A stretch of 64,000 nucleotides of DNA, from NCBI RefSeq assembly GCF_963921235.1, contig NC_086097.1, positions 118,670,001 through 118,734,000 on the forward strand. The letters are read 5' to 3'. This DNA comes from Mobula hypostoma. Taxonomy: Eukaryota. Both the position numbers and the translations under genes were made by a program. The notes beneath the pieces are model-generated. The model ran no database searches. It was not told the origin of the DNA and saw nothing but the letters and a program-made list of their open reading frames with translations. Shown piece after piece: positions 2,171 to 46,300 of this stretch. Each line of letters starts with the position of its first letter. Position 1 is the first letter of the stretch.

Positions 2171-2345
2171 TATTTATTTATTTATTTTCATTTAATGATA
2201 CAAAACGATAACGGGCCCTTCTCGCCCATGAGCCCACATTGACCAGTTGTGCCCATGTGACAAATTTATCTACTAACCTACACATATTTCGAACATGGGA
2301 GGAAACCAGAGCACCCATACAGTCATGGGTGAAGAATTCCTTTAA
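2171..2345 (-). mobile_element. V-SINE-like fragment
   Basis: (ttta)n tail and gggaggaaaccagagcacc, reverse complement of the V-SINE core; second copy at 25410-25630. Confidence 0.6.
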
Positions 2346-2394
2346 ATCTGTGGTGGGAATTGATCCCAGGATGCTAATCGCCATGGTACCATGT

Positions 2395-5300
2395 TATCCC
2401 GGGGGAAGCGACGGTGGCCCTGCCTCCAGCACAGAGTCCAGCCCTGTAGCTCAGAAGGGTAGGGCAAGGAAGAGGAGGGCAGTTGTGATAGGGGACTCAA
2501 TAGTAAGGGGGTCAGATAGGCGATTATGTGGACGCAGGCGAGAGACCCGGGTGGTAGTTTCCCTCCCTGGTGCCAGGGTCCGGGATATTTCTGATCGTGT
2601 TCAAGATATCCTGAAGTGGGAGGGTGAGGAGCCAGAGGTCGTGGTACATATAGGTACCAATGACATAGGTAGGAAAAGGGAAGAGGTCCTGAAAGGAGAA
2701 TATAGGGAGCTAGGAAGGGAGTTGAGAAAAAGGACTGCAAAGGTAGTAACCTCGGGATTACTGCCTGTGCCACGCGACAGTGAGAGTAGGAATGCGATGA
2801 GGTGGAGGATAAATGCGTGGCTGAGGGATTGGAGCAGGAGGCAGGGATTCAAGTTTTTGGATCATTGGGACCTCTTTTGGCGCAGGCGTGACCTGTACAA
2901 AAAGGACGGGTTACACTTGAATCCTACGAGGACCAATATCCTGGCAGGGAGATTAGCGAGGGCTACTGAGGTGACTTTAAACTAGAATGGTTGAGGGGTG
3001 TGAATCAAATTAAAGAGGCTAGGCGAGTGGAGGTTAGTTCACAACAGGGGGATGGGAACCAGTGCAGAGAGACAGAGAGGTGTAAGGTGAGGGTAGAAGC
3101 AAAAAGTAGTAAGGAGAAAAGTAAAAGTGGCAGGCCGACAAATCCAGGGCAAGCATCAAAAAGGGCCACTTTTCAACATAATTGTATAAGGGCTAAGAGA
3201 GTTGTAAAAGAGTGCCTGAAGGCTTTGTGTGTCAATGCAAGGAGCATTCGTAACAAGGTGGATGAATTGAAAGTGCAGATTGTTATTAATGATTATGATA
3301 TAGTTGGGATCACAGAGACATGGCTCCAGGGTGACCAAGGATGGGAGCTCAATGTTCAGGGATATTCAATATTCAGGAGGGATAGACATGAAAGAAAAGG
3401 AGGTGGGGTGGCGTTGCTGGTTAAAGATGAGATTAATGCAATAGAAAGGAAGGACATAAGCCGGGAAGATGTGGAATCGATATGAGTAGAGCTGCATAAC
3501 ACTAAGGGGCAGAAAACGCTGGTGCGAGTTGTGTACAGGCCACCTAACAGTCGTAGTGAGGTAGGAGATGGTATTAAACAGGAAATTAGAAATGTGTGCA
3601 ATAAAAGAACAGCAGTTATAATGGGTGACTTCAGTCTTCATATAGATTGGGTGAACCAAATTGGTAAAGGTGCTGAGGAAGAGGATTTCTTGGAATGTAT
3701 GCGGGATTTTTTTTGAACCAACATGTCGAGGAACCAACTAGAGAGCAGGCTATTCTAGACTGGGTTTTGAGCAATGAGGAAGAGTTAATTAGCAATCTTG
3801 TCGTGAGAGGCCCCTTGGATAAGAGTGACCATAATATGGTGGAATTCTTCATTAAGATGGAGAATGACATAGTTAATTCAGAATCAAAGGTTCTGAACTT
3901 AAAGAGGGGTAACTTTGAAGGTATGAGACGTGAATTTGCTAAGATAGACTGGCAAATGACACTTAAAGAATTGATGGTGGATATGCAATGGCAAGCATTT
4001 AAAGATTGCATGGATGAACTACAACAATTGTTCATCCCAGTTTGGCAAAAGAATAAATCAAGGAAGGTAGTGCACCCGTGGCTGACAAGAGAAATTAGGG
4101 ATAGTATCAATTCCAAAGAAGAAGCATACAAATTAGCCAGAAAAAGTGGCTCACCTGAGGACTGGGAGAAATTCAGAGTTCAGCAGAGGAGGACAAAGGG
4201 CTTAATTAGGAAGGGGAAAAAAAGATTATGAGAGAAAACTGGCAGGGAACATAAAAACTGACTGTAAAAGCTTTTATAGATATGTAAAAGGAAAAGACTG
4301 GTCAAGACAAATGTAGGCTCTCTACAGACAGAAACAGGTGAATTGATTATGGGGAGCAAGGACATGGCAGACCAACTGAATAATTACTTTGGTTCTGCCT
4401 TCACTAAGGAGGACATAAATAATCTTCCAGAAATAGTAGGGGACAGAGGGTCCAGTGAGATGGAGGAACTGAGCGAAATACTTGTTAGTAGGGAAGTGGT
4501 GTTAGGTAAATTGAAGGGATTAAAGGCAGATAAATCCCCAGGGCCAGATGGTCTGCATCCCAGAGTGCTTAAGGAAGTAGCCCAAGAAATAGTGGATGCA
4601 TTAGTGATAATTTTTCAAAACTCGTTAGATTCTGGACTAGTTCCTGAGGATTGGAGGGTGGCTAATGTAACCCCACTTTTTAAAAAAGGAGGGAGAGAGA
4701 AACCGGGGAATTATAGGCCAGTTAGCCTAACGTTGGTGGTGGGGAAACTGCTGGAGTCAGTTATCAAAGATGTTATAACAGCACATTTGGAAAGCGGTGA
4801 AATCATCGGACAAAGTCAGCATGGATTTGTGAAAGGAAAATCATGTCTGACGAATCTCATAGAATTTTTTGAGGATGTAACTAGTAGAGTGGATAGGGGA
4901 GAACCAGTGGATGTGGTATATTTGGATTTTCAAAAGGCTTTTGGCAAGGTCCCACACGGGAGATTAGTGTGCAAACTTAAAGCACATGGTATTGGGGGTA
5001 AGGTATTGATGTGGATAGAGAATTGGTTAGCAGACAGGAAGCAAAGAGTGGGAATAAACGGGACCTTTTCAGAATGGCAGGCAGTGACTAGTGGGGTACC
5101 GCAAGGTTCAGTGCTGGGACCCCAGTTGTTTACAATATATATTAATGACTTGGATGAGGGAATTAAATGCAGCATCTCCAAGTTTGCGGATGACACGAAG
5201 CTGGGCGGCAGTGTTAGCTGTGAGGAGGATGCTAAGAGGATGCAGGGTGACTTGGATAGGTTGGGTGAGTGGGCAAATTCATGGCAGATGCAATTTAATG

Positions 5301-6120
5301 TGGATAAATGTGAAGTTATCCACTTTGGTGGCAAAAACAGGGAAACAGATTATTTTCTGAATGGTGTCCGATTAGGAAAAGGGGAGGTGCAACGAGACCT
5401 GGGTGTCATTATACACCAGTCATTGAAAATGGGCATGCAGGTACAGCAGGCGGTGAAAAAGGCGAATGGTATGCTGGCATTTATAGGGAGAGGATTCGAG
5501 TACAGGAGCAGGGAGGTACTACTGCAGTTGTACAAGGCCTTGGTGAGACCACACCTGGAGTATTGTGTGCAGTGTTGGTCCCCTAATCTGAGGAAAGACA
5601 TCCTTGCCATAGAGGGAGTACAAAGAAGGTTCACCAGATTGATTCCTGGGATGGCAGGACTTTCATATGAAGAAAGACTGGATGAACAAGGCTTGTACTC
5701 ATTGGAATTTAGAAGATTGAGGGGGGATCTGATTGAAACGTATAAAATTTTAAAGGGATTGGACAGGCTAGATGCAGGAAGATTGTTTCCGATGTTGGGG
5801 AAATCCAGAACGAGGGGTCACAGTTTGAGGATAAGGGGGAAGCCTTTTAGGACTGAGATTAGGAAAAACTTCTTCACATAGAGAGTGGTGAATCTGTGGA
5901 ATTCTCTGCCACAGGAAACAGTTGAGGCCAGTTCATTGGCTATATTTAAGAGGGAGTTACATATGACCTTTGTGGTTACGGGGATCAGGGGGTATGGAGG
6001 GAAGGCTGGTGCAGGGTTCTGAGTTGGATGATCAGCCATGATAATAATAAATGTTGGTGCAGGCTCGAAGGGCCGAATGGCCTACTCCTGCACCTATTTT
6101 CTATGTTTCTATGTTTCTAT
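2395..6120 (+). mobile_element. CR1 LINE, near full length (ORF1 SGNH esterase, APE endonuclease, RT), with stops and frameshifts
   Basis: ORF1 VIGDSIVR...VVHIGTND...DGLHLN; APE NARS..ITETWL..YRPP..SDHN; RT ORF 4343-5881 [29 protein letters not shown]; tail (ttctatgt)n. Confidence 0.95.
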
Positions 6121-9048: not shown

Positions 9049-11639
9049 GAGAGGTTCTTGATTAGTAAGGCTGTCTAAGATTATGAGGAGAAGGCAGGAG
9101 TACAGGGTTGAGAAGGATAACAAATCAAACATGATAGAAAGCCAGAGCAGATTCAATGGGCCAAATGGTTGAATTCTACTCCTATGCTTTATGTTCAAGG
9201 TCCTCTCTAGCTTATGACCACCTGACTTATGTACGACCCTTAGAAATGACCAAGCATTTGGGAGTTTAGTGGGATGGGTTTGCCAGCTGCTGTGGGGCTG
9301 CAAGCGTCTTCTGCTAAGTAGAAATTTAGAGAGTGGCTGTGTTTCCAACTTTCAAATTTTTTGGGCTATGAACAGTTACTCTTTTTAATTAGTTTTCCTC
9401 TGCCTGTATGATGTAAAGTGAATTAAGTTCTTTCACATTTCTTGAGGTTTCCATAAGACATAGGAGCAGAATTAGGTCATTCGGCCCATCACGTCTGTTC
9501 TGTTATTTAATCATGGCTGATCCTTTATCCCCTCCTCAGCCCCGCTCTCCAGCCTTCTCCTCGTAACCTTTGATGCTGCATCCAATCAAGAACCTATCAA
9601 GATCTGCCTTAAGTACACCGAAGGACCTGACCTCCACAGCTGCCTGTGGTAACGAAATCCACAAATTCACCATCCTCTGGCTAAAGAAATTTCTCTGGAT
9701 CTCTGTTTTAATTGGATGCACTTGTATCCTGAGACTGTGTCCTCTTTTCCTAGACTCCCCCACCATGGGAAACATCCTTTCTAAATCTACGCTTTCTAGG
9801 CCTTTCGACATTCGAAAAGTTTCAATGAGATCCCCCCTCATCCTTCTGAATTCCAGCGGGTACAGGCCCAGAGCTATCAAATGTTCCTCGGTTGGTAACC
9901 CTTTCATTCCCTGAATCATCTTTGTGAACCTCCTTTAAACTCTCTCCAATGCCAGCACAACTTTTCTTAGATGAGGAGCCTGAAACTGTTCACAAACCTC
10001 ACCAGTGCCTTATAAAGCCTCAGCATCACATCCCTGTTCTTGTATTCGAGTCCTCTTGAAATGAATGCTAACATAGCATTTGCCTTCCTCACCACCAACT
10101 CTTAACAGCAAGTTAACATTTAGGGTATTCTGCACAAGGACTTCCAAGTCCCTTTGCCTCTCAGATTTGTGGATTATCTTTCCATTTAGAAAATATTCCG
10201 CACATTTATTTCTACTACCAAAGTGCATGACCATGCATTTTCCAACATCGTATTTAATTTGCCACTTCCTTACTCATTCTTCTAATCTGTCGAACTCCTT
10301 CTGCAGTTCTTTCCTGAACACTACCTGCCCCTCCACCAATCTTCACATCATCTGCATACCTGGCAACAAAGCCTTCCATTTCATCATCTAAATCATTCAT
10401 ATACAGCATAAAAAGAAGCTGTCCCAACACCGAACCCTGCGGAACACCACTAGTAACGGGAAGCCAACTAGAAAATGATCCTTTTATTCCCACTTGCTGC
10501 CTCCTACCAATCAGCCAATGCTCTAACTATGAAAGTAACTTCCCTGCAATACCATGGACTCTTAACTTGGTAAGCAGCTTCGTGTGTGACACCTCGTCAA
10601 GGGCCTTCTGAATGTCCAAATGTAATGCCCTGGTTCACACCTTCACTGTTATGCTGTAGGTATTTCATTTAGCTGCTCTGTAAGAGCTGTTTGTTCTCCC
10701 TTCAGCCTGATTGGGTTATTGTTGAAGACGTAGCCCCCCTGGCCAGCCTCAGGGTCGCTCAGCTTGCTGTCATCTAGGGAAGTAGCCGTCGGCCCTACCA
10801 AACTGAATAATAGTTTGTGTGGATGCTGTGTGATGTACCCCACCCTGCCCAAATAACAGACAATACACCAGATACGATTAACTGGTTTACAGTTTATAGA
10901 TATTACTGGAACTATATAATTAATAGAGGATAAAATGTAAAAGGAAAGTAAAAGGCCCCACACTTGTAAAAGTTCAATCTCTTCGTGCACAAACAGTTGG
11001 AGCTCAGGACCCTCCTTCTTCACTCTGCGATCCCCTCGAACCACCTTGACCTGCCACCTGGGACTAACAACGGTGGTCGACCAGACGCTCCTCATGCGTC
11101 CGTCTCCATCTCCTCTCCTCGCCGAACACCCTGGACCTCAGACACCTGTTCGGAGTCCAACCCCGTTAGCGGACTCACAGCACCTGGTCCATCCTCTGTC
11201 TCTCTCTCTCCTGCCTTCTCCTAAAAGTCCGTGCATCACACTAACTTACAGACATACGGAAAAAATAACATCTATCCCAATTTGTTTGTTCACCATCTTA
11301 TCAGTAACATAATCCAAACAAAATGCTAGCAGGAGGACGTTCTCAGCAGTTAACATAACAAAGAAGCCATTTCAATGATAACATAACAAAGAAACCATTT
11401 TGATTAGACTACGCAGTAACATAAAAGAACCAATCTGGGAGCTTCCTAATCCTCCGAGACCTCCGTACACCCTCACCTAAACCCTAAAGGCTCGGACACT
11501 ACTAGGGATACCTCGGGTCTGCTTGCCAACTCCTCTCTCACTCAGGCCGCCACTACAACTTGGAGCCCCTGTCCCGTGTCCGGGGCCCCGCTTCTTCTCC
11601 TTCCTGATCCTGTCGTAACTCAGACTGCCCACAGCTAGC

Positions 11640-12953
11640 CTACCCCACTACACCTGACTCAGTGGGAGAAGGGCCAAAGGTCTCTTCCTCAGTCACGGGG
11701 AAGTTAGTGAAAGGCAGCAGGTACCACATGTGCAGCACATCATCCTTCGAATCCGTATTCTTCCTCATTCTCTCGATCGGTAGCTGCTGTTTAAGTTTCT
11801 CCACACTGAAACATTTAGCCGGGGCTACCCCTTCAGCCTCCTGCAGTCGAGACGTCAGCTTCTTCGGGGACTCCTCCAACTCTCGCCACAGCCTCAGTAG
11901 TTCTGACTCAGGGTTCCTGGCCATCTCAATCTGGGACGCAGTTACCCCACCAGCTTCTTCCACCCTGACCTGAAAAGCAGCAGTTAAAGAATATTCAGCC
12001 TCCGGTTGTTTCTTCCTGAGGGCGTCTTCCAGGTCAACTTTCAGTTTTTCAAATTCATTTAAACTCACGATAGTCATCTTCAGATTCCTTTCAAGTGTCC
12101 GCCTCCCTTTTCCGAGATCTGTCCTCCATTGCTTCACCTCCTCGAGAGTGTAGTCACACTCCCCTCCCTGGGCTCTCGGTTTTCTGCTGACTTTAGTCAG
12201 AACACTTCCTTGATCTTCCCCAACTTGTATGTCTTCCAATCTTTTCTGGATCGATGTCTTGAGTTTCTGCTGATCCCTTCGAAGGGGGGTCATTGTTTTG
12301 TCTCGCTGGATTAATTCATCAGTACATGACCGCAGAGTCGGCTCGGAATTCCGTTGCTCCTTCTCCACATTGACGAGCGGGAATTCCAAGTCTGCAATGG
12401 TCGTCCCACAAGTGCGGCACTCAGTCTCCAGCAGGCATTTCTGAGTGGTCTGCTCAGCGATGCCAATCCCCCCTCTCCCTTGTGTTGCATTCTGATTGAC
12501 GACCTGGGTTTCCATCCCCAGGTCCACCACCATCTGTTCCAACACCAGGAAGTTCAACTGGTATGTCGGGTCAATTTTCTCACATTGCACCAAAATCCTC
12601 CGGCCAAAAACTCCTCCACATTTGACACTTCGCTTCTGTCGCCCGAGCTCAGCCACTTGTCTCGCCTCATAGTCCCCCCAGGCGAATCCAAGCTCCAGGC
12701 GGTCATCCACATACGCCAAAACTCCACACACCTTCACTTCCCCCATGGTCTTCCTCATGCCCCACAGGAAGGTTGCAGGGGCTCCGGATATGCCCTTTGG
12801 CATCTTTTCGGATTGGAAGAATCCTAGGGAACTAATAACGGCCACCTTCTCCTCATCAGCCGCACTCCTCAGGATCTGGCAACATCCACTCCTCAGATCC
12901 TGCACATTAAACCACGTCGCATAATCCGCACACATGCTGCCTAGGTCTTCCAC
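11640..12953 (-). CDS. Chimeric ORF (437 aa): Gypsy RT N-half, myosin heavy-chain rod fragments, pol C-terminal tail
   Basis: DLRSGCCQI..MPKGISGAPATF..LAYVDD (Gypsy RT), then coiled coil resembling myosin II rod, then VLHMWYLLP (resembles the pol tail LHRNxLLP); expression unknown. Confidence 0.75.
   Translation of the reverse strand: MEDLGSMCADYATWFNVQDLRSGCCQILRSAADEEKVAVISSLGFFQSEKMPKGISGAPATFLWGMRKTMGEVKVCGVLAYVDDRLELGFAWGDYEARQVAELGRQKRSVKCGGVFGRRILVQCEKIDPTYQLNFLVLEQMVVDLGMETQVVNQNATQGRGGIGIAEQTTQKCLLETECRTCGTTIADLEFPLVNVEKEQRNSEPTLRSCTDELIQRDKTMTPLRRDQQKLKTSIQKRLEDIQVGEDQGSVLTKVSRKPRAQGGECDYTLEEVKQWRTDLGKGRRTLERNLKMTIVSLNEFEKLKVDLEDALRKKQPEAEYSLTAAFQVRVEEAGGVTASQIEMARNPESELLRLWRELEESPKKLTSRLQEAEGVAPAKCFSVEKLKQQLPIERMRKNTDSKDDVLHMWYLLPFTNFPVTEEETFGPSPTESGVVG
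11769..12540 (-). pseudogene. Intronless captured fragments of a sarcomeric myosin heavy chain rod (MYH16-like)
   Basis: IADLEFPLVNVEKEQ ~ IDDLELTLAKVEKEK; LEDIQVGEDQGSVLTK ~ LDDLQAEEDKVNTLTK; RVEEAGGVTASQIEM ~ RLEEAGGATSAQIEM; KKLTSRLQEAE..AKCFSVEKLKQQL ~ KKLAQRLQEAE..AKCSSLEKTKHRL (comparison with remembered sequences). Confidence 0.85.
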
Positions 12954-12999
12954 TGCGCCAGGGTCCAGTCACCGTGACCTCTCTCTCACTGAGGTGTCT

Positions 13000-13614
13000 T
13001 CAGTGGTCAAGTGCCCCTCCCTTGTGGTAGTTTGCAGCGTCTACTAAGAGGGTCTCACCCTCAGCTACTTCCCCCAGGCCATACCACAGCTGGGTCTCGT
13101 TTAAATTCAGTTCCGGCTCAAGGCTGCTACACACGTCCTCAGAAGTAACTCGACACGCAGGGTGCCCAGACAATGCCCCCATGAACTCCAGGGTCATTAA
13201 CCAGTCATTGTCTTCTGGGTAATTACTGGCACCGGTACCCCAAATCTCCGGTGCCCTTGCAGTTGTCAACGGTAAATGCTTCAGACACCGGTTGTAAAAC
13301 GAACTGTACAACAACTTGATCTGCACTCCGGGGTCGAGGATGGCTTTAGCATCGCTTCCCTCTATCCATAGCGACACCCTGGGGCGTGGCCCCTCTAAGC
13401 CTTCAGGAATAGGGTCTTTTCCTTTCGGAAGTTCATCGGTACATTGCTGGGAACATGCTTTCCCAGAGACCCCAAGTCGTTCCCCCACTGGGCCTCCGCT
13501 AAGTTTCCCGACACCTCTCTGATCAGCTGAACAACTGAGGGAGAGTCTGAACCCTTGAAATGATCCCCCTGGCACTGCAAGCAATTTAGCCGCCCTCCTA
13601 ACCAGAGAAGACAC
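13000..13614 (-). pseudogene. Gypsy aspartic protease remnant
   Basis: [24 protein letters not shown], a degenerate LLDTGSQV motif. Confidence 0.75.
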
Positions 13615-14099
13615 ACTGAAAACTTGCCCCCCTCTTTCAAGTAACTGACAGCTGTCACTACGGTGTAAATGAACCTGACAGCTCTAACACCGTCACCAGC
13701 CCGCCTATTCAAACTTTCAACCAATCCCTGTCGCTCTCCCTCAACCAAGCACTGCAACTCATCTAACAACTGAGAGATCCGCTCCACCCATGTCTCGCAC
13801 GCCTCCGCCCCTCTTGGGGTGGACACTATCCCAAACGCCAGGCAGAGCCTGCCAGAGCTAGAACAGTTATCCACAGACACTACCTCCAAATCAGAACACT
13901 CTTTCCTCTCTCTCCCAATAGCATGGACAACCCCGAATCCCACCCCCAACTCATCAACGCTAGTCTGAACTCGAGCAAAGACCTCACCCACCACGCACAC
14001 AGCAATAACCAGCAAATAACCCACAGAGACACGTATTACTGATTTAAACAGGGCAACCACACAGCATACCACTAGATCCAATCCCAGATGAGCCCCCAA
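13395..14099 (-). pseudogene. Gypsy Gag remnant (PNMA-like capsid region)
   Basis: PRGAEACETWVERISQLLDELQ..ERQGLVESLNRRA resembles PNMA/Gypsy gag GEExFExW..KRxRLxESLRGPA. Confidence 0.7.
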
Positions 14100-17000
14100 A
14101 TGTAGCCCCCCTGTCCAGCCTCAGTCGCTCAGCTCGCTGTCTTCTAGAGAAGCAGCTCTCGGCCCCGCCAAACTGGATAACAGTTTGTGTGGATGCTGTG
14201 TGATGTACCCCACCCCACCCAAATAACGGACAATACACCAGATACGATGAACTGATTTACGGTTTATAGATATTACTGGAACTATATAATTAATAGAGAA
14301 TAAAATATAAAAGGAAAATAAAAAGCACCACCCTTATCAAAGTTCAATCTCTTCGCGCACAAACTGTTGGAGCTCAGGACCCTCCTTCTTCACTCTGCAA
14401 TCCCCTTGGACCACCTCGACCTGCCACCTGGGACCAACAATGGTGATCAACCAAACACTCCACATGAGTCCGTCTCCGTCTCCTCTCCTCAAACTCTTGC
14501 TCGGGGTCCAACCCCATTAGTGGACTCACAGCACCTGGTCCATCCTCTGTCTCTCTCTCTCCCGCCTTCTCCCAAAAACCCGCACATCACACTAACTTAC
14601 AGACACACAGAAAATATAGCATCTATCCCAATTGGTTTGTTCACCATCTTATCAGTAACATAATCCAAACAAACTGATTGTGGGAGGACTTTCTCAGCAG
14701 TTAACATAACAAAGAAGCCATTTCAATGATAACATAACAAGGAAGCCATTTTAATTAGACTACACAGTAACATAAAAGAAGAAACCCCTTACAAAGATAA
14801 GGGATGATGTGGAATGTGTGCCATTCAATTAACAGGAGGTTTCCTTTGTGAGGGACAATAACGTTGGGCTTGAGGTTTTCTTTGTATCAGGAGATGAAGA
14901 GAGAAGACGCTGGGGATAACGGGTCATAGCATACAATCGGTGGGAGACCTGCTTGTTTGAGATGGATTGTGATCAACGTTTGGAAGGTGGTGTGTGCTTT
15001 CACATGGATCGAGAGTCCAGTGCATGAGTGACAGAGAAATTCAAGATGAGCTCCAACTTGTGCATGTTTCACTGTTTAATTAGAATAAGCCCTTTTCTCT
15101 TTGTTTTTCTTTACTAACCTTTCAGTTAAGATTCATAAATAGAATTCTTTCAATCGTATGCAGTGTACCGTCTGTTATTTGGTGGCACTAATTTGTAACA
15201 GGGTAGCAAATGACACAACATCCACACAAAACGAGGTTTGGGTTGGAATCAAGCACACCTCAATTTCACAAGTTTGGCAGGGTTTTCTTCCATAGATTTA
15301 TGCAGCCAAAAAAAACAGGGTGTTTCACAAATATACAACATCTACTGCATCTCCTTTATCTATCCAACTTGTAACCTCGTCAGAGAATTCCAGCAGGTTC
15401 CATCAGGCAAGATTTTCCCTTGATGAAACCTCAAGGACTTTGCCTTATCTTGTCCTGTGTCCTCTGTCACGTAGTACTCCATTGACTCCAACCTCTTTCC
15501 AACCACTGAGTTCAGGCGAATTCGTCTATTGTTTCATTTTTGCTGTCTTCCTCCTTTCTTAAAGCGTGGAGTGACATTTGCAATTTTCCAGTATTCTGGC
15601 ACCATGCCAGAGTCCAATGAGTTTTGAAGCTTCATTACTAATGTTGCCTCAATCTTTACAGCTACCTCTTTCAGAACCCTAGGATGCAGCTCCTCTGGTC
15701 CAGGTGACTTAAGAACCCTTAGGTCTTCCAGCTTTTTATGCACCTTCTCCCTTGCAATAGTAACTGCTCTCACTTCTCTTCCCTCACACCCTCAACATCT
15801 GGCACATTGCTAATGTCTTCCACGGTGAAGACTGTTGCAAAATACTGATTTAGTTCATCTGCCATCTCCATGTCCCCCATTATTATTTCTCCAGACTTTT
15901 CTTTTAGTGGTCCTATAATCACTCACCTCTCTCTTTTATTTTTTCATAGTTAAGAAGCTTTTACTATCCACCTTGATATTGTTTGCTCGCTTGGTTTCAT
16001 ATTTCATCTATTCCCCCAATCATTCTTTCAGTTGCTGTCTGTCAATTTTTAAAACCTTCCCAACCCTCTATCTTCCTATTAATTTTTGCTTTGTTGTATG
16101 CCCTTTCTTTTGCTTTTACATTAGCTTTGACTTCCTTTGAGTATTTCATTGTTTTTGGAATATATGTATCCTGTGTTCTCCTAATTTTTTCCCAGAAACT
16201 CACACCATTGCTATTCTGCTGTCATCCCTGCCAGCAGCTCCTTCCAATTTACTTTGGCCAACTCCTCTCTCATGCCACTGTAATTTCCTTTACTCTGCTG
16301 AAATACTGCTATGTTACTCTTTATCTTCTCCCTATCAAATTTCAAGTTAAAATCAATCATATTGTAATCACTGTCCCCTAAGAGTTCTTTTACCTTAAGC
16401 TCCCTAATCATCTCCAGTTCATTACATGACACCCAAATAGCTGATCCCCTAGTAGGCTCAACGACTAGGCTAAAAACTATCTCATAGGCATTTAACAAAC
16501 TCACCCTCTTGAGATCCATTTCTGACCTAATTTCCCCAATCTACCTGAATGTTGATACCTCTCATACTATCACAACATTGTCCTTTTGAATCACCTTTTC
16601 TGTTTCCCATTGTAATCTGTGGTCCACATCCCAGCTACTGCTGGGAGGTCTGTAAGCATCTGCCATCAGTGTCCTTTCATCCTTGTCGTTTCATAACTCA
16701 ACCCACAAGGATTCAACATCTTCTGATCCTATGATTTGATGCCATTCTTTACCAGCAGAGCCATGCCACCCTTTCTGTCTGCCTTCCTACCCCTCTGATG
16801 CAAAGCATAACCATGGACATTTAGCTCCATCTACAACCATCCTTCATCCATAATTCAGTGATGACCACAACATCACACCTGACAATCTGTAATAGTGCAA
16901 CAAGATTATCCACCTTATTTTTTTATACTCAGTGCATTGAAATATAATACTTTGAGTGCTGTATTTGCTACTCTTTTTGAATCTACATCTCTAATGCACT

Positions 17001-20185: not shown

Positions 20186-21360
20186 AGAACATAGAATGTA
20201 GAATAGTACAGCACAGTACAGGCCCTTCGGCCCACATTGTTGTGCGGACCCTCAAATCCTGTCTGCCATATAACCCCCCACCTTAAATTCCTCCATATAC
20301 CTGTCTAGTTGTCTCTTAAATTTCACTAGTGTATCTGCCTCCACCACCGAATCAGGCAGTGTATTCCACGCACGAACCACTCTCTGAGTAAAAAATCTTA
20401 CTCTAATATCCCCCTTGAGCTTCCCACCCCTTACCTTAAAGCCATGTCCTCTTGTATTGAGCAGTGGTGCCCTGGGGAAGAGGCATTGGCTATCCACTCT
20501 ATCTATTCCTCTTAATATTTTGTATACCTCTAACATGTCTCCTCTCATCCTCCTTCTCTCCAAAGAGTAAAGCCCTAGCTCCCTTAATCTCTGATCATAA
20601 TCCATACTCTCTAAACCAGGCAGCATTCTGGTAAATCTCCTCTGTCCCCTTTCCAATGCTTCCACGTTCTTCCTATAGTGAGGCGACCAGAACTGGACAC
20701 AATACTCCAAGTGTGGCCTAACCAAAGTTTTATAGAGCTGCATCATTACATCGCGACTCTTAAACTCTATCCCCCGACTTATGAAAGCTAACATCCCATA
20801 AGCTTTCTTAACTACCCTATCCACCTGTAAGGCAACTTTCAGGGATCTGTGGACATGTACCCCCAGATCCCTCTGCTCCTCCACACTACCAAGTATCCTG
20901 CCATTTACTTTGTACTCTGCCTTGGAGTTTGTCCTTCCAAAGTGTACCACCTCACACTTCTCCGGGTTGAACTCCATCTGCCACTTCTCAGCGCACTTCT
21001 GTATCCTATCAATGTCTCTCTGCAATCTTTGACAATCCTCTACACTATCTACAACACCACCAACCTTTGTGTCATCTGCAAACTTGCCAACCCACCCTTC
21101 TACCCCTACATCCAGGTCGTTAATAAAAATCACGAAAAGTAGAGGTCCCAGAACAGATCCTTGTGGGACACCACTAGTCACAATCCTCCATTCTGAATGT
21201 ACTCCCTCCACCATGACCCTCTGCCTTCTACAGGCAAGCCAATTCTGAATCCACCTGGCCAAACTTCCCTGGATCCCATGCCTTCTGACTATCTGAATAT
21301 GCCTACCATGTGGAACCTTGTCAAATGCATTAGTAAAATCAATATAGATCACATCCACTT
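20186..21360 (-). mobile_element. 5'-truncated CR1 LINE with an uninterrupted 368-aa RT C-terminal ORF
   Basis: ORF 20252-21358: [40 protein letters not shown]; ttctat-type tail. Confidence 0.95.
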
Positions 21361-35062: not shown

Positions 35063-36010
35063 GCTGAGCCCTCTTCTGTACTCCCTTTTCACCTATGACT
35101 GTGTTCCTGTACATGATTCTAACTCCATAATCAAGTTCGCAGACGATTGGTTGGCCTGATCAGAGGGGATGACGAGACGGCCTACAGGGACGAGGTCCAG
35201 CACCTGGCCATGTGGTGTGCCGACAACAACCTGGCCCTTAACACCCAGAAGACCAAGGAGGTCATTGTGGACTTCAGGCATGCTAGAAGCCACACTCACG
35301 TCCCCATTTACATCAACGGAACTGTAGTGGAGCGTGTATCAAGCTTCAAATTCCTTGGTGTCCACATTTCCGAGGATCTCACCTGGTCCCTGAACTCCTC
35401 CATCCTGATCAAAAAGGCGCAACAGCACCTTTATTTCCCGCGGAGCATGAAGAAAGCTCACCTCTGTCCCAGGATACTGACGGACTTTTACCGCTGTACC
35501 ATTGAGAGCATACTCACCAACTGCATCTCAGTGTGGTATGGTAATTGTCACGTATCAGACCACAAAGCACTCCAGCATGTGGTAAAACCTGCCCACCTGA
35601 TTATCGGCACCCAATTTCCCACCATTGAGAACATCTACCATAAATGCTGCCTGGGCAGGGCGAAAAGCATTATCAAGGATGCATCTCACCCTAACCATGG
35701 ACTTTTTACTCTCCTCCCGTCCGGTAGGTGCTACAGGAGCCTCCGCTCCCACACCAGCAGGCACAGGAAGATCTTCTTCCCTGAGGCTGTGACACTGCTG
35801 AACCTCTCATCACAGCGCTAAGCAGTATTGCATCCATATTGTACTGTCTCGGTGCTTTTATATTTGTGTGTTGTAGCACTTTTTTTTATTCTCAGTTATT
35901 TTGTAAGTAACACTATTCTTTACATTTCTGGTCAGATGCTAAATGCATTTCATTAGCTTTGTATCTGTACTCGGCACAATAACAATAAAGTTGAATCTAA
36001 TCAAATCTAA
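35063..36010 (+). mobile_element. Rex1/Babar-like LINE 3' fragment
   Basis: LSPLLYSLFT..IKFADD; ORF 35147-35821 WCADNNLALNTQKTKEVIVDFR..FKFLGVHI..FYRCTIESIL; (aatct)n tail. Confidence 0.9.
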
Positions 36011-38978: not shown

Positions 38979-40869
38979 TTCCCAGTGATGGAGAGGTGCT
39001 GCTCTTGGCATCTTTTGGACATGTTGGCATCTCATACAGTGCATGGCAAGTTGCTTGATCTGCTGATCTATCCCAGGCCACCAGACAAAGCTCTGAGCCA
39101 ACATTTTCAATAGGCAAACAAGACAATACAATAATATTTCCATGATTAGTCACCCTCCTGAATTCAATCTTGTAATTGAGTCATCCAAGAAACAGAGCCC
39201 ATCTCTGCGTTGATGCTGCTGCTGTTAGTGAAACACGCTTCTGTCGATTGAAAATGAACACTAGTGGTTGATGATCAATTATGTGGTGATAATCAGGCTA
39301 ACCTCACTTATTACTGGTCTATATTGGTTAAAACATTTTACACCCCAAACCAGACTCAAGGCCTCTCTGTGGATCTGTGTGTTATTTTTCTCTGCAGTGG
39401 TGAGGAAAGTTGATGCAAAGGCTATATAAGGTATTCACTTCCATCACTCATAACATGTGACATGACTTCACCTATACCATAAGGCAAGCTTCACTTGTCA
39501 CTGTGGATCATAATATGAGAGTGTAGCGTCTGACTTACTTTCCCATTTTCAAAGCCACCTCACACTGCTTTGTCCTTTGCCATTTCTTCCTGATCTATAG
39601 TAATGAGTTCAAGGGGTGGAGCACAGTAGCCAGGTTTGGCAGGAACCTTAATTAGTAATTGACAAATCCTAAAAAGAACTGCAGCTATGACACGTTCTTT
39701 GGTCTTGGGGCATCCACCACTGCTTGAATTTTATTAGCACACTTGTGTAATCCTTGTGTGTCAATAGAGTGTACACAGTAAGTGATGCATGGTTTAAAGG
39801 ATTCGCACTTGCCACATCATGCTTTGAGCCCATAATCTTCTAATCTTTTTAACATTGGCTTGAGGGTTCCTTGCCATCATCACTGGTAACAATGATGTCA
39901 TCCAGGTAACACTGAGTGCCTGGGCAGTCTTGAAGCACCTGGTCCATCGATTTCTGCCAGAGTGCAGGTGCAGATGCTACTCCAAAAATAAGCCTATTAC
40001 AGTGATAAAGATCTTTGTGAAAGTTTCTGGTGAGAAACAATTTTGACTTTTCATCCATCTCCATCTGCAAGTAGGCCTCAGTCCACTTTGCTGAAGTGTT
40101 CTCCTCCAGAAAGGTTTACAAAGAAGCCCTCAATCCTGGGCAAAGTGTATTGATCCACTTTCAGTACTGGGATTGTGGTGACCTTATATTCACCACAAAT
40201 TCTGACAGATCCATTCTTCTGGGACCATGTTGCTCATGAACTGTATCTTGGAAATAATTCCTTCAGTTTCCATGCGATCCAGCTCATTGCTAATTTATCA
40301 TGGATGATATAAGGAACCAGCTGAGCTTTGCAAAACTTGGGTGCGGAATTTTCACTAGACAATATTTTACACTTGATGTGTTTGAGTTTTCCAATGTCAT
40401 TGCTGTGGCACCATCCAATACCTTTCTTAATTCACTTCCAAATGTCTTCATTGCAGGGATGTGGCATGCAAATGATGGATGGACCTCCAAACAAGTTGTC
40501 ATTGTCACATCCCCACAATGCCAGTCCTTCTGTTTTTACCACATACAAGCTCAATGTAAATTGTTGGTTATGGTATTTCACAGTTGCAAATGTCATTTCC
40601 TCAGGTGTTATCTTTTCTCCAGTATAAGTTCTTAGATTGTTACCTGCAGGTTTCAGTTCTGTATGTTTGAAATGCCATTCAAACTTATTTTGTGGAATGA
40701 TTGAAACAGCTGAACCAGTGTCTAATTGCATTTTAATTAATTTGCCATTAACTCCAAATGTAAGCAATATTGCTTGTCTATTGTTAATTTTCATGTTGCA
40801 AATAATAAAGCTACACAGTTCTGCATCACTTTCATCATTATCAGATTTTCCATCAACAGTGTGCAGATT

Positions 40870-42815
40870 CACAAACCTGCTTGTCCTGGTAGACCTATTG
40901 TCTCAGCTTGCTCCTGCCCCACCAAACTCAGTTCTGCGTACCTCGACATGGTTTTATCACCCCTTGTTCAATCCCTTCCTGCCTATGTTCGTGACACTTC
41001 TCACACTCTGAAACTTTTCAATGATTTTAAGTTTCCTGGCCCTCACCAATTTATTTTCACCATGGATGTCCAGTCCCTATATACTTCGATCCCCCATCAG
41101 GAAGGTCTCAAAGCTCTCTGCTTCTTTTTGGATTCCAGACCTAATCAGTTCCCCTCTACCACCACTCTGCTCCGTCTAGAGGAATTGGTCCTTACTCTTA
41201 ACAATTTCTACTTTGGCTCCTCCCACTTCCTCCAAACTAAAGGTGTAGCCATGGGCACCCGTATGGGTCCTAGCTATGCCAGCCTTTTTGTTGGCTTTAT
41301 GGAACAATCTATGTTCCAAACCTATTCTGGTATCTGTCCCCCACTTTTCATTTGCTACATCGACGACTGCATTGGTGCTGCTTCCTGCACGCATGCTGAG
41401 CTCGTTGACTTTATTAACTTTGCCTCCAACTTTCACCCTGCCCTCAAGTTTACCTGGTCCATTTCTGACACCTCCCTCCCCTTTCTAGATCTTTCTGTCT
41501 CTATCTCTGGAGGCAGCTTATCTCCTGATGTCTACTATAAGCCTACTGACTCTCACAGCTATCTGGACTATTCCTCTTCTCACCCTGTCTCTTGCAAAAA
41601 TGCCATCTCCTTCTCGCAATTCCTCCGTCTCCGCCGCATCTGCTCTCAGGATAAGGCTTTTCATTCCAGGACGAGGGAGATGTCCTCCTTTTTTAAAGAA
41701 AGGGGCTTCCCTTCCTCCACCATCAACTCTGCTGTCAAACGCATCTCCCCCATTTCACACACATCTGCTCTCACTCCATCCTCCCGCCACCCCACTAGGA
41801 ATAGGGTTCCCCTTGTCCTCACCTACCACCCCACCAGCCTCCGGGTCCAACATATAATTCTCCATAACTTCCACCACCTCCAACGGGATCCCACCACTAA
41901 GCACATCCTTCCCTCCCCACCTCTCTCTACTTTCCACAGGGATCGCTCCCGACGCGACTCCCATGTCTATTCGTCCCTCCCATCGATCTCCCTCCTGGCA
42001 CTTATCCTTGTAAGCGGAATATGTGCTACATATGCCCTTACACTTCCTCCCTCACCACCATTCAGAGCCCCAGACTGTCCTCCCAGGTGAGGCGACACTT
42101 CACCTGTGAGTCGGCTGGGGTGATATACTGCGTCCGGTGCTCCCGATGTGGCCTTCTATATATTAGCGAGACCCGACGCAAACTGGGAGATCGTTTTGCT
42201 GAACACCTACGCTCTGTCCACCAGAGAAAGCAGGATCTCCCAGTGGCCACACATTTTAATTCCACGTCCCATTCCCATTCTGATATGTCTATCTACAGCC
42301 TCCTCTTCTGTAAAGATAAAGCCACACTCAGGTTGGAGGATCAACACCTTACACCTTATTGGAACAGCCTCCAATCTGATGGCATGAACATTGACTTCTC
42401 TAACTTCCGCTAATGCCCCAACTCCCCCTCATACCTCGTACCCCATCCATTATCTATTTATATACACACATTCTTTTTCTCTCTCTCCTTTTTCTCCCTC
42501 TGTATCTCTCACTATACTCCTTGCCCATCCTCTGGGTTTTCTCCCTCCTCCTCCTTTTCTTTCTTCCTGGGCCTCCTGTCCCATGGTCCTCTCTTATCCC
42601 TTTTGCCAATCAGCTGTCCAGCTCTTGGCTCCATCTCTCCCCCTCCTGTCTTCTCCTATCATTTCGGATCTCCTCCTCCCCCTCCCACTTTCAAATCTCT
42701 GACTAGCTCGTCTTTCAGTTCGTCCTGACGAAGCGTCTCGGACCGAAACGTCAACTGTACCTTTTCCTAGAAATGCTGCCTGGCCTGCTGCGTTCACCAG
42801 TAACTTTTATGTGTG
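40870..42815 (+). mobile_element. Penelope-like element (RT plus GIY-YIG), 5'-truncated
   Basis: IHKPACPGRPIVS..MDVQSLYTSIP..GVAMGTRMGPSYA..YIDD..PFLDL; VIYCVRCSRCGLLYISET; 9-bp TSD gtgcagatt (40861-40869, 42816-42824). Confidence 0.95.
42721..42756 (+). ncRNA. Degenerate hammerhead motif
   Basis: CTGACGA...GAAACGTC core intact but stem II mismatched (gcgt/gacc). Confidence 0.5.
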
Positions 42816-43314
42816 GTGCAGATTAGTGCTCCTTTTAAACTTCTATTTGACATTTTAGCTTTTTCTCTTCCCTGTGCAGACCATTTATTTTTATCCTCCT
42901 GGGATGCTTTTGTATGTGTCCTACTTCATTGCATTTTCTGCAAGTTTCATCTGGAAAGCTGCATATATCTGCAATATGTGAGCCCCTACCCCAAAAGTAA
43001 CACAATGTGTTTGGCTGGTCAGGTTTCTGTTTTGACATTACAATTTTGTTCACACTCACTTTCATTCCCGCTTGCAACTCAATGGTGTCTGTGGTTTCCA
43101 CTGAAACAACAGTTTCAACTGTTCTTTCAAATGTAATTTGTACTTCGGTTTGGAGCCATTTTTGAAAGCTTTGTTACAAGATTCCATACACTAAGTGATC
43201 TCTCAGTGCATCATTAATTCCATTACTGAACTGACAATACTCAGACAATAGCTTCAGTTCAGCCACGTATGCTGGAATGGACTCCCCTTTCTTTTGATTC
43301 TGCTATAAAACCTA

Positions 43315-46300
43315 AATCAAATTGGCACGGACAGACAAGAACAGTAGGGCTCACACAGCTAACGGTTTAAAAAGTTTGTCTGTTTGGCAAGGTAAGAGGG
43401 TGAGTAGACTTATTTTTCCTGTTTCATTCGTGTAGAATTAGATAGCATGCCTGCAGGGTTAGTGCTTTGTTCAGGGTGTCAGACGTGGGAATTCTGGGAG
43501 ACCTCCAGCCTCCCTGATGGCCACATCTGCACCAGGTGCACCGAGATGCAGCTCCTCAGAGACCGTGTTAGGGATCTGGAGCTGCAGCTTGATGACCTAC
43601 TGCTTATCAGAGAAAGTGAAGAGGTGATAGACAGGAGCTACAGGGAGGTAGTTATCCCTAGGCTACAGGGGTCAGAAAACTGGGTGACTGTCAGGAGAGG
43701 GAAGGAAAATGCCCGGATAGTGGAGAGCACACCTGTGGCTGTCCCCCTCAGAAACAAATATCTCGTTTCAGATGCTGTTGAGGGGGGTGCCCTGACAGGG
43801 GACGCCCACGGTGACAGGATCTCTGGCACTGAGCCTAGCGCTGTTGTGCAGGAGGGAAGGAGGAAGAAGAGGAATGCGGTAGTCTTAGGGGATTCCATAG
43901 TCAAGGGAACGGACAGGAGATTCTGTGACCCTGGTAGAGATACCCACATGATGTGTTGCCTCCCAGGTGCCAAGGTACGGGATGCCTCGGATCGGGTCCA
44001 GAATATTCTGAAGGGAGAGGGCGAGCAGCCAGTTGTCTTGGTACATGTTGGTACCAATGACATAGATAGGATAAGGGAGGAAGTCCTGAAGAGAGATTTC
44101 CAGGAGTTAGGAAGGAAGCTGAGAAGCAGGACCTCCAGGGTAGTAATCTTGGGATTGCTACCTGTGCCACGTGCTAGCGAGGGCAAGAATAGTAGGATCA
44201 GGCAGATGAATGTGTGGCTGAGAGACTGGTGCAGGGGCAGGGCTTCAGATTCTTGGATCATTGGGATCTCTTCTAGGGGAAGTATGACCTGTTCAAAATG
44301 GACAGGTTACACCTGAACCCGAAGGGAACCAATATCCTGGCGGGAAGGTTTAATAGAGCTGTTAGGGAGGGTTTAAACTAATTTGGCAGGGGGAGGGGAA
44401 CAGGAATGATAGAGCGGAGGAAGGGAAAGACAGAAATAAATCTAAGATAGTGAGCAGTAAAGATGTCAGGAAAGACAGGCAGGTGATGGGGAAAATTTGC
44501 AGCCATTGGGATGAGTTGCAGTGCAATGAAGTTGCAGTGAAATCAAAGTGAACAGTACCTAATACTGGTCTTAAGGTGTTATACTTAAATGCACGCAGCG
44601 TAAGGAATAAGGTGGATGATCTTGTCGTACAGTTACAGATTGGCAGGTATGATATTGTGGCCATCGCTGAGACGTGGCTAAAGGATGCATGTCTCTGGGA
44701 GCTGAACGTCCAAGGGTACACGGTGTATCAGAAGGATAGGAAGGTAGGCAGAGGGGGAGGCGTGGCTTTATTGGTAAGAAACTATATTAAATCATTAGAA
44801 AGAGGTGATATAGAATCAGAAGGTGTAGAATCTTTTGGGTTGAGCTAAGAAATCGCAGGGCGAAAAGGACCCTGATGGCAGTTATTTATAGGCCTCCAAA
44901 CAGCTGCAGTGATGTGGACTACAAATTACAACTGGAAATAGAAGAGGCTTGTCAGAAGGGCAGTGTTATGATAATTGTGGGGGATTTTAACATACGAGTG
45001 GATTGGGAAAATCAGGTCGGCACTGGATCTCAAGAGAGAGAATTTGTAGAATGTCTGCCAGATGGCTTTTTAGAACAGCTTGTTGTTGAGCCCACTAGGG
45101 GATCGGCTGTACTGGATTGGGTATTGTGTAATGAAACGGAGGTGATTAGAGAGATTGAGGTGAAGAAACCCTTAGGAGGCAGTGATCATAACATGATTGA
45201 GTTCACTGTGACATTTGAAAAAGAGAAGCCGAAATCTGATGTGTCGGTATTTCAGTGGAGTAAAGGAAATTACAGTGGCATGAGAGAGGAACTGGCCAAA
45301 ATTGACTAGAAAGGGAGACTGGCGGGAAGGACGGCAGAACAGCAGTGGCTGGAGTTTATGCGAGAAGTGAGGAAGGTGCAAGACAGGTATATTCCAAAGA
45401 AGAAGAAATTTTTGAATGGAAAAAGGATGCAACCGTGGCTGACAAGAGAAGTCAAAGCCAAAGTTAAAGCAAAGGAGAGGGCATACAAGGAAGCAAAAAT
45501 TAGTGGGAAGACAGAGGTTTGGGAAGTTTTTAAAAGTTTAATAAAAGAATCTAAGAACATCATTAAGAGGGAAAAGATTAACTATGAAAGGAATCTGTTA
45601 GTCTTGCGAGACCATGGATCTGCACCTGGAAAGTCTTCGCTCTCCAGGGTGCAGACCTGGGCAAGGTTGTATGGAAGACCAGCAGTTGCCCATGCTGCAA
45701 GTCTCTCCTCTCCACAACACCAATGTTGTCCAAGAGAAGGGCATTAGGACCCATACAGTTTGGCACCAGTGTCGTCGCAGAGCAATGTGTGATTAAGTGC
45801 CTAGCTCATGGACACAACACGTTGCCTCGGCTGGGGCTTGAACTCATGACCTTCAGGTCAATAGTCCAAAGCCTTAACCACTTGGCCCGTACCCACAACT
45901 ATGAAAGGAAGCTAGCAAATAATATCAAAGAAGATACTAAAAGCTTTTTCAAGTATACAAAGAGTAAAATACAGGTGAGAGTAGATATAGGACTGATACA
46001 AAATGATGCTGGAGAAATTGTAATGGGAGATAAGGAGATGGTGAAGGAACTGAATGAGAATTTTGCATCAGTCTTCGCTGAGGAAGACATCAGCAGTATA
46101 CCGGACACTCAAGGGTGGCAGGGAAGAGGAGTGTGCACAGTCACAATTACGATAGAGGAAGTACTCCGGAAGCTGAATAGTCCAAAGGTAGATAAATCTC
46201 CCAGACCAGATGGAATGCACCCTCGTGTTCTGAAGGAAGTAGCTTTGGAGATTGCGGAGGCATTAGCGATGATCTTTCAAAAGACGATAGATTCTAGCAT

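What the first reader, a model, noticed from the sequence alone, without database searches (positions are those of the whole stretch)
10729..14793. LTR retrotransposon that has captured a myosin heavy-chain mRNA segment in place of RNase H and integrase
Seen in sequence: a complete LTR-bounded unit (two ~700-bp LTRs, aaga TSD, tRNA-Pro-type PBS, gag, protease, RT up to YVDD). Right after RT, residues ~139-395 of ORF 11640-12953 match the sarcomeric myosin II rod (LVNVEKEQ, EDIQVGEDQGSVLTK, VEEAGGVTASQIEM, LQEAE..AKCFSVEK). The segment NLKMTIVSLNEFEKLKVDLEDALRKK is closest to remembered MYH16 (DLKMTIDNLNEMERSKLDLEEVVKKR). No introns are present over a stretch that spans several exons in MYH genes. 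Pol tail motifs resume afterwards (VLHMWYLLP; GVRRSRRIRKLPD near 11430-11470). Established: LTR elements can transduce host mRNA by template switching during reverse transcription. Inference: this is a non-autonomous, myosin-carrying family that transposed as a unit, since the TSD flanks the chimera. I know of no description of it.
Basis: partly seen in the sequence, partly recalled or inferred. Interest (0 to 1): 0.92.

Follow-up and report, generated by a model that had tools for sequence, protein, structure and literature searches.

The report
Ray retrotransposon family carrying a myosin fragment
This is one decayed copy of an abundant, crippled jumping-gene family of stingrays and manta rays that long ago swapped its integrase gene for a spliced piece of a host muscle-myosin gene and then multiplied with that cargo, a known kind of accident seen here on an unusually large scale.

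Summary
Window 10729-14793 (minus strand) is an LTR element with two ~690-nt LTRs, a 4-bp target duplication and a tRNA-Pro primer site. It keeps remnants of gag, protease, RT and RNase H. One ORF joins these to ~245 residues of sarcomeric myosin rod, then to the C-terminal tail of Pol.

The cargo is truly myosin (PDB MYH7, E 1.3e-13). I found its source, an intron-containing MYH16-like gene on contig C68 of the same genome. An older copy of the family is 96.6% identical in DNA to one exon. Homology starts at the exon's acceptor boundary, and the exon-exon joint is the spliced one.

The chimera is a family. The myosin part has 1469 first-look candidates and the remnant-myosin junction has 543. 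Every scored copy is 89-94% identical, and 7 of 8 full copies have their own perfect 4-bp duplication.

Older copies keep a whole RNase H, so myosin first replaced only integrase. ORFs of the same chimera are annotated in four myliobatiform rays, often mislabelled as myosin. No selection on the myosin frame was detected.

Mechanism: LTR-mediated retroposition, then mobilisation in trans. This is a new, very high-copy member of a known kind.

The parts
14794..14797 (-). Target-site duplication, 5' side (tctt on the element strand)
   Evidence: Read. The same 4 bases follow the 3' LTR. 7 of 8 full copies have their own perfect 4-bp TSD.
14101..14793 (-). 5' LTR (693 nt, TGTAAGG...GGCTACA)
   Evidence: K2P to the 3' LTR is 0.111.
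14081..14098 (-). Primer-binding site for tRNA-Pro, 2 nt after the LTR
   Evidence: 16 of 18 bases complementary to the 3' end (plus CCA) of the genome's tRNA-Pro(TGG) gene L071.
13629..13832 (-). gag remnant (PNMA-like capsid N-terminal part). The capsid C-terminus and both zinc knuckles are deleted.
   Evidence: P0003 residues 97-164 match autonomous gag 194-264 at 37%, E 5e-7. Pfam PNMA E 0.0042, below the cut-off.
13183..13518 (-). Protease remnant (active-site motif decayed to DPG)
   Evidence: P0002 residues 56-167 match autonomous 457-568 at 57%, E 3e-33.
12633..12932 (-). Reverse-transcriptase remnant up to YVDD, with internal deletions
   Evidence: P0001 residues 13-112 match autonomous RT 903-1002 at 50%, E 6e-24. 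Pfam RVT_1 E 0.033. Ty3 RT 4ol8 E 0.0099.
12522..12620 (-). RNase H remnant (..PTYQLNFLVLEQMVVD)
   Evidence: P0001 residues 83-149 match autonomous RNase H 68-134, E 0.002. In copy L064 the match is E 4.8e-4.
11781..12521 (-). Captured myosin II rod, intronless, in frame and in sense. It is a patchwork of four blocks: rod from about MYH7 residue 905 through exon C of the source gene, an exon D remnant, the ..EEAGG..ELEE block (exons F-G), and a distal ..KKKL..AKC..LEK.KQQL block.
   Evidence: PDB MYH7 E 1.3e-13. Block map. 79% DNA identity to source exon C, 82% to the exon D remnant and 85% to exon G.
11652..11762 (-). C-terminal tail of Pol (the stretch after integrase), still in frame. Stop codon at 11640-11642.
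   Evidence: P0001 residues 393-439 match autonomous Pol 722-768 at 47%, E 2.6e-5. blastn of 11653-11766 against L067 gives E 2.9e-9.
11430..11639 (-). 3' untranslated remainder. This copy lacks about 160 nt, including the polypurine tract, and the first ~13 nt of the 3' LTR that other copies have.
   Evidence: One search shows a gap of ~160-175 nt in the other loci. One search shows the PPT ..ggtggggggagag directly before the LTR in the 7 other full copies.
10729..11429 (-). 3' LTR (5' end truncated; last base mutated A>G)
10725..10728 (-). Target-site duplication, 3' side
   Evidence: In one search, contigs in 4 of 4 runs join 10724 to 14794 with 4 shared letters. This is weak because the shorter side is only 24-25 nt.

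Best explanation
The window holds an old, dead copy of a high-copy, non-autonomous Ty3/gypsy LTR retrotransposon family.

An ancestor of the family, a gag-PR-RT-RH-IN element primed by tRNA-Pro, acquired about 1 kb of spliced mRNA from a host sarcomeric myosin heavy-chain gene. That gene is a second MYH16-like gene on contig C68. The piece sits in sense and in frame, exactly where integrase had been, between the end of RNase H and the C-terminal tail of Pol.

The most likely route is two template switches of reverse transcriptase onto a co-packaged host mRNA (LTR-mediated retroposition). This step is inferred.

The chimera kept its LTRs, PBS and PPT, so proteins of autonomous relatives could copy it in trans. 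It went through further internal deletions: RNase H, most of RT, the gag C-terminus with its zinc knuckles, and parts of the myosin piece. One such derivative, the window's subfamily, multiplied to hundreds or more than a thousand copies. Those copies have since decayed neutrally.

The myosin piece behaves as a passenger. No constraint on its amino-acid sequence was detected.
For: Shown:
- Element anatomy and TSD.
- Myosin identity.
- Source gene: exon C at C68:14612355-14612504 has AG and GT splice sites and sits in a 55-aa open frame. A ~3-kb intron separates it from exon D, and exon G lies 54 kb further on.
- DNA identity to exon C: L065 96.6% (142/147), L066 93.3%, L064 81.3%, window 79.2%.
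- In the best-preserved copy, L065, homology starts at the first exon base; blastn shows the match ending at the intron. L065 reads straight across the spliced C/D joint.
- Older copies carry a complete RNase H end (68% over 66 aa to the autonomous Pol, ending at ..LSR) followed at once by myosin. The Pol tail resumes after it. The replaced span of the autonomous Pol holds Integrase_H2C2 and rve.
- Family size: 1469 candidates for the myosin DNA, with 39 of 39 scored non-self hits at 92-94%; 543 candidates for the junction; 1844 candidates at protein level.
- 19 of 19 other loci are colinear from the Pol tail to gag.
- 7 of 8 full copies have distinct perfect TSDs.
- Autonomous relatives with open frames up to 1714 aa exist in the genome.
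- The same chimera, with the myosin-to-Pol-tail joint, is annotated as ORFs in Mobula birostris, M. hypostoma and Hypanus sabinus. ORFs of the family are also annotated in Hemitrygon akajei; the one read there (P0026) ends before the tail's WYMLPF motif.

Precedent for the mechanism: Tan et al. 2016, PMC5131818 (passages read).
Against: - The two capture junctions could not be compared with the source mRNA.
- No autonomous element with the same LTR was identified. The one examined (L067) matches the window only at 70-73% over short stretches.
- The young subfamily's myosin part is ~20% diverged from the host exon, while older fossils are only 3-7% diverged. This needs a fast-evolving replicating lineage, or gene conversion of the fossils. 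It is not resolved.
- Candidate counts are first-look numbers, not a census.
Confidence: 0.9

Rival explanations
1. The spliced myosin piece entered the element at the DNA level, not by template switching inside a particle. For example, recombination or repair could have joined an element with a pre-existing processed myosin pseudogene. The product then transposed as above.
For: The switch points were not examined, so nothing here tells the two routes apart. Internal deletions at short repeats (the ELEE..ELEE joint) show the lineage rearranges readily.
Against: - The cargo is in sense, in frame with Pol on both sides, and replaces an internal part. This is the pattern reported for LTR-mediated retrocopies (PMC5131818, passages).
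- No poly(A) or inner TSD is visible between the myosin part and the Pol tail in L066 or the window.
Confidence: 0.08
2. The long fusion ORF (gag-PR-RT-RH remnants, myosin coiled coil, Pol tail) is functional. Either the element needs it for its own mobilisation, or the host has domesticated it.
For: - In copy L064 all nine homologous blocks lie in one 836-aa open frame, so at least eight junctions are in frame.
- ORFs of 442-568 aa spanning several blocks occur in 5 of 20 unselected copies.
- The myosin part is the only region predicted as long helices (low confidence).
Against: - pN/pS in the true frame (0.53 within the young subfamily, 0.59 young versus old) equals that of the +1 frame (0.59 and 0.53), so no frame-specific constraint shows.
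- ORF lengths in 20 unselected copies (median about 240 aa) match a simulation of neutral decay of an 836-codon frame at 4.5% substitutions (median 245).
- The protease motif has decayed and RT is full of deletions.
Confidence: 0.08
3. A processed myosin pseudogene landed in this one element after it had integrated.
For: None found.
Against: The same junction occurs in every other copy examined (19 of 19; 39 of 39 scored hits). Each copy has its own TSD outside the LTRs.
Confidence: 0.005
4. The match is generic coiled-coil similarity, not myosin.
For: Pfam Myosin_tail_1 misses the window ORF. In an older copy (P0009) it reaches only 38.0 bits against a cut-off of 38.1.
Against: There is 79-97% DNA identity to exons of a host myosin gene, with the match in L065 starting at the acceptor boundary and reading across the spliced exon C/D joint. 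The protein alignment to MYH7 is colinear at E 1.3e-13.
Confidence: 0.005

Closest known systems
LTR-mediated chimeric retrocopies of animals (Tan et al. 2016, Genome Res 26:1663, PMC5131818; passages read)
   Same: A spliced, partial host mRNA replaces part of the internal ORFs of an LTR retrotransposon. Both LTRs are kept, and the chimera can be retroposed again as a non-autonomous element.
   Different: Those cases are young and have one or a few insertion sites. This one is old (LTR K2P 0.06-0.11), shared by several ray genera, and has hundreds to over a thousand candidate copies with its own subfamilies. Microsimilarity at the switch points, a hallmark there, was not testable here.
Maize Bs1 (as described in PMC13317346 and PMC5131818; passages read)
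   Same: [quoted passage not shown]
   Different: Bs1 has 1-5 copies and three source genes. Here there is one source gene, a much larger copy number, and an animal host.
Non-autonomous/autonomous LTR pairs such as ETn/MusD and MaLR/MERVL (named in PMC5131818)
   Same: A defective element with intact ends out-multiplies its helper.
   Different: The helper for this family was not identified, and the internal cargo here has a traceable host gene.
Acutely transforming retroviruses carrying a cellular gene in place of viral genes (recalled, no call)
   Same: A host mRNA is captured during reverse transcription, replication genes are lost, and the product depends on a helper.
   Different: This is a germline retrotransposon. 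The cargo is a structural rod fragment, with no sign of selection or of any effect on the host.

Membership tests
Ty3/gypsy (Metaviridae) LTR retrotransposon | Two LTRs ending TG..CA, a short TSD, a PBS after the 5' LTR and a PPT before the 3' LTR | tested here: met
   In the window copy the PPT and the LTR's final A are lost, but both are present in the 7 other full copies.
Ty3/gypsy (Metaviridae) LTR retrotransposon | Pol order PR-RT-RH-IN and RT of the Ty3 type | tested here: met
   The remnants lie in that order. The autonomous relative L067 has PNMA-like gag, zf-CCHC, RVT_1, RT_RNaseH and then Integrase_H2C2/rve. The best non-myosin PDB hits are Ty3 RT. IN is absent from the chimera by construction.
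Non-autonomous LTR retrotransposon | No functional pol, yet many copies with their own TSDs | tested here: met
Non-autonomous LTR retrotransposon | An autonomous partner sharing the LTR and PBS | tested here: inconclusive
   Autonomous relatives exist at about 70% aa identity in RT/RNase H. L067 shares only 73% over 85 nt of LTR. No element with the same LTR was found.
LTR-mediated chimeric retrocopy (Tan et al. 2016) | An intronless copy of host mRNA replaces internal element sequence between both LTRs | tested here: met
LTR-mediated chimeric retrocopy (Tan et al. 2016) | Microsimilarity at the switch points | not tested
LTR-mediated chimeric retrocopy (Tan et al. 2016) | Secondary retroposition of the chimera | tested here: met
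Myosin II heavy chain rod (Pfam Myosin_tail_1) as origin of the cargo | Significant, colinear similarity to the myosin II rod | tested here: met
   PDB E 1.3e-13 and DNA identity to host exons. By Pfam's own cut-off it is not met: no hit for the window ORF and 38.0 against 38.1 bits for P0009. This is a decayed fragment, not a myosin gene.

The most novel reading that the evidence does not exclude
The replicating lineage kept one uninterrupted reading frame, from gag through the myosin cargo to the Pol tail, across at least eight independent deletion and capture junctions, while the encoded residues drifted freely.

That pattern would mean the frame had to stay open for mobilisation, whatever protein it spelled. 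Two possible reasons are escape from nonsense-mediated decay of the genomic RNA and translation-coupled packaging.

Earlier notes of this scan report RBM25-carrying and SUDS3-carrying Gypsy families in the same genome (not tested here). Together with them, ray Gypsy elements would form a recurrent 'pack-type' system that captures host mRNAs in frame and amplifies them.
Probability: 0.15. Interest if true: 0.75.

Novelty: new member of a known kind. Interest (0 to 1): 0.55.

Why it matters
It is a clean, datable example of host-mRNA capture by an LTR retrotransposon in a vertebrate. The source gene still sits in the genome, intermediate fossils survive, and the final product multiplied far beyond the few copies known for Bs1 or for fly retrocopies.

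It has a practical cost. Copies are annotated as 'putative uncharacterized protein MYH16' or 'myosin heavy chain, striated muscle-like'. They also appear inside models named TMEM192 and SDHAF3 in ray genomes.

Hundreds of sense copies 80-97% identical to a muscle gene are also a possible source of small RNAs against that gene. This is untested.

Tried and rejected
- Canonical MYH16 orthologue (C36, L063) as source: only 44-61% aa per exon to old copies. Rejected in favour of the C68 gene.
- Exon skipping, or a retained intron end, to explain 'AEYSLTAAFQVRV': alignment with Hypanus and other Mobula copies shows an exon D remnant plus a plain deletion.
- Selection on the myosin frame: pN/pS is the same in the true and +1 frames.
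- ORF lengths fit neutral decay.
- Upstream exons of the source gene: none in the 10 kb before L068 (L069).
- Autonomous partner with the same LTR: not found.
- Pfam on the window ORFs: only sub-threshold RVT_1 and PNMA.
- Expression: no RNA holder listed. The four runs laid are of unrecorded kind and are contigs only. They hold 450-1109 pieces at 85-100% likeness over the whole element, which shows many copies and says nothing on transcription.
- AlphaFold2 model of the ORF: mean pLDDT 43. Only helices at 168-379 reach 53-76. It was not used for fold searches.
- Wider taxa: a profile search of 1.84 billion representatives gave 317 proteins at E<=0.001. Of the ten further top hits looked up, the named family members were again Mobula hypostoma and Hemitrygon akajei. 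The other named hits were true myosins of lungfish, birds and a catfish, and four carried no name. No skate, sawfish or shark ORF appeared. This is weak evidence of absence, because repeats are usually masked before annotation.
- Earlier notes by place and by sequence: nothing.
- Literature: searches for a description of this family found none. Supplements were not read.
Full report
ANATOMY OF THE WINDOW COPY

The element lies on the minus strand at 10729-14793. Two direct repeats of 300 and 294 nt, each 90% identical, mark the LTRs. Reading the sequence and comparing seven other full copies sets the 5' LTR at 14101-14793 (TGTAAGG...GGCTACA) and the 3' LTR at 10729-11429. The same four bases (tctt on the element strand) lie outside both ends.

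Two bases after the 5' LTR comes an 18-nt primer-binding site. I located a tRNA-Pro(TGG) gene in the same genome. With CCA added (established knowledge), its last 18 nt pair with the window's site at 16 of 18 positions and with copy L053's site at 17 of 18.

Compared with other copies, the window copy lacks about 160 nt at the 3' end of the internal region. The lost stretch includes the polypurine tract and the first ~13 nt of the 3' LTR. LTR divergence (K2P) is 0.111 here and 0.060-0.096 in seven other copies.

WHAT THE INTERNAL REGION ENCODES

For comparison I fetched an autonomous Ty3/gypsy element from the same genome (L067). It encodes:
- a PNMA-like gag with two zinc knuckles
- protease and RT (P0012)
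- after a single stop in the same frame, RNase H, a zinc-binding and core integrase, and a C-terminal tail (P0013; Pfam)

Against it, the window's three ORFs are remnants:
- gag: 37% over 71 aa
- protease: 57% over 112 aa
- RT through YVDD: 50% over 100 aa
- a sliver of RNase H
- at the far end of the long ORF, the post-integrase tail of Pol: 47% over 47 aa

The capsid C-terminus with the zinc knuckles, most of RT and RNase H, and all of integrase are missing.

THE CARGO IS MYOSIN

Between the RNase H sliver and the Pol tail, ORF residues ~150-396 are myosin rod. Of 17 PDB sequences found at E<=1, 13 are myosin II heavy chains (best E 1.3e-13, colinear with MYH7 933-1122). Two are Ty3 RT and two are weak chance hits.

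The piece is a patchwork. A long colinear block is followed by two short blocks that lie further along the rod. Pfam's myosin-tail model misses the window ORF. In an older copy it reaches 38.0 bits against a cut-off of 38.1.

IT IS A FAMILY

The myosin part alone has 1469 first-look candidates in the 3.48-Gb genome. All 39 scored non-self hits are 92-94% identical. All 19 fetched loci are colinear with the window from the Pol tail through the myosin part into gag.

A 141-nt probe across the RNase H-remnant/myosin joint has 543 candidates. All 39 scored non-self hits are 89-92% identical over at least 139 nt.

Of eight full copies, window included, seven have perfect 4-bp duplications, all different. 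The eighth matches at 3 of 4 bases. So the chimera transposed as a unit many times.

OLDER RELATIVES SHOW THE ORIGINAL EVENT

A protein-level search turned up rarer copies with a longer and better-preserved myosin part. In two of them (L065, L066) RNase H is complete (68% over 66 aa to the autonomous Pol) up to its '..LSR' end. Myosin follows within about 15 residues, and the Pol tail resumes after it.

The span replaced in the autonomous Pol holds the integrase domains. So the first event swapped integrase for myosin, in sense and in frame. The window's subfamily arose later through further deletions.

Alignment with annotated ORFs from other rays showed that the odd 'AEYSLTAAFQVRV' stretch is an exon D remnant next to a deletion. 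It is not exon skipping or intron sequence.

THE SOURCE GENE

The best named full-length relative was a skate 'myosin-16-like' protein (36% identity). Its orthologue in this genome (C36) is only 44-61% identical per exon to the old copies.

A Narcine protein, P0032, was much closer (67% over 157 aa). One of its isoforms lacks exactly the stretch that corresponds to one exon, which suggests a real intron-containing gene.

Searching the genome with the part of P0032 that corresponds to one exon put a non-repeat hit on top: C68:14612361-14612504, 92% identity, inside a 55-aa open frame. The fetched DNA shows an exon with AG and GT splice sites. A ~3-kb intron separates it from the next exon, and another matching exon lies 54 kb downstream.

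DNA identity to the first exon:
- L065: 96.6% (142/147)
- L066: 93.3%
- L064: 81.3%
- window: 79.2%

In the best-preserved copy, L065, homology begins at the first exon base. L065 reads straight across the spliced joint into the next exon. This is the decisive evidence that the cargo is a copy of spliced mRNA from that gene.

NO SIGN OF SELECTION ON THE CARGO

Over 111 codons in 19 copies, pN/pS is 0.53 within the young subfamily and 0.59 between subfamilies. The same sequences read in the +1 frame give 0.59 and 0.53, and ts/tv is 2.1. The low ratio is therefore a mutation-bias effect.

Open frames around the cargo in 20 unselected copies have a median of about 240 aa. Random decay of an 836-codon frame at 4.5% substitutions gives a median of 245.

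ONE THING STANDS OUT

Copy L064 has a single 836-aa frame through all nine homologous blocks. Several other copies have frames of 442-568 aa. So the master copy probably had one continuous frame despite at least eight junctions. I treat selection for an open frame as a minority reading.

DISTRIBUTION

ORFs with the same myosin-to-Pol-tail joint are annotated in Mobula birostris, M. hypostoma and Hypanus sabinus. ORFs of the family are also annotated in Hemitrygon akajei, but the one I read there ends before the tail's WYMLPF motif.

Their names include:
- 'putative uncharacterized protein MYH16'
- 'myosin heavy chain, striated muscle-like'
- 'TMEM192 isoform X1' (wholly element-derived)
- 'SDHAF3 isoform X1'

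The Hypanus copies have a different RNase H-to-myosin deletion but share one deletion inside the cargo with Mobula copies. If inheritance was vertical, the capture therefore predates the split of the stingray and manta lineages (inference).

An exhaustive profile search added no further named taxa.

With an assumed neutral rate of 0.5-1 x 10^-9 per site per year (my assumption, no call), the LTR divergences correspond to roughly 30-110 million years.

An open point: the young subfamily's cargo is far more diverged from the host exon (~20%) than the old fossils are (3-7%). This implies fast change in the replicating lineage.

KNOWN PARALLELS

LTR-mediated retroposition with secondary retroposition is described in flies, mosquito, zebrafish, chicken and mammals, and for maize Bs1 at 1-5 copies (PMC5131818 and PMC13317346, passages). 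Six literature searches found no description of this ray family.

Earlier notes of this scan describe another copy of the same family, and two other Gypsy families with captured RBM25 and SUDS3 in this genome. I confirmed the first independently and did not test the others.

VERDICT

This is a new, very high-copy member of a known kind.

Noticed in passing
window ~11968-11990 (minus strand), and Hypanus protein P0031: The deletion joint between the exon D remnant and '..EEAGG' reads like a strong 3' splice site (pyrimidine run plus cag). The Hypanus gene model 'SDHAF3 isoform X1' switches from SDHAF3 sequence to element sequence exactly after that point. This suggests exonisation of a family copy through a cryptic acceptor. 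It rests on an annotation, not on reads.
   Followed up: partly
Hypanus protein P0022: A model named 'transmembrane protein 192 isoform X1' (729 aa) is element-derived from end to end: gag, PR, RT, myosin, Pol tail.
   Followed up: partly
window 2212-5881(+), 20252-21358(-), 40741-46814(+), 10254-10526(-): The window is dense in LINE remains with a GDSL-esterase-type first ORF and an RT (Pfam). The element's left flank is such an RT fragment, with a 78% copy at about 46579-46976.
   Followed up: partly
window 35123-35821(+): An ORF here has an ALKBH8_N-like Pfam hit (E 8e-15). Its context was not examined.
   Followed up: no
L067 7221-9000 (G000:C76): The autonomous element's Pol runs into about 1.8 kb of ~84-nt tandem repeats that stay open in several frames.
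   Followed up: no
G000:C68:15.31-15.89 Mb: There are at least eight hits to the same large myosin-rod exon spaced tens of kb apart, most likely a tandem cluster of sarcomeric MYH genes. It lies about 0.7 Mb from the source gene.
   Followed up: no
G000:C18:48745314-48746731: A long uninterrupted myosin-tail match (profile positions 514-993) with several stops looks like an ordinary processed myosin pseudogene, unrelated to this family.
   Followed up: no
window 12335-12457: A subfamily variant lacks a net 120 nt here, an in-frame loss. It is seen in copy L064 and in contigs of runs X2 and X4.
   Followed up: partly
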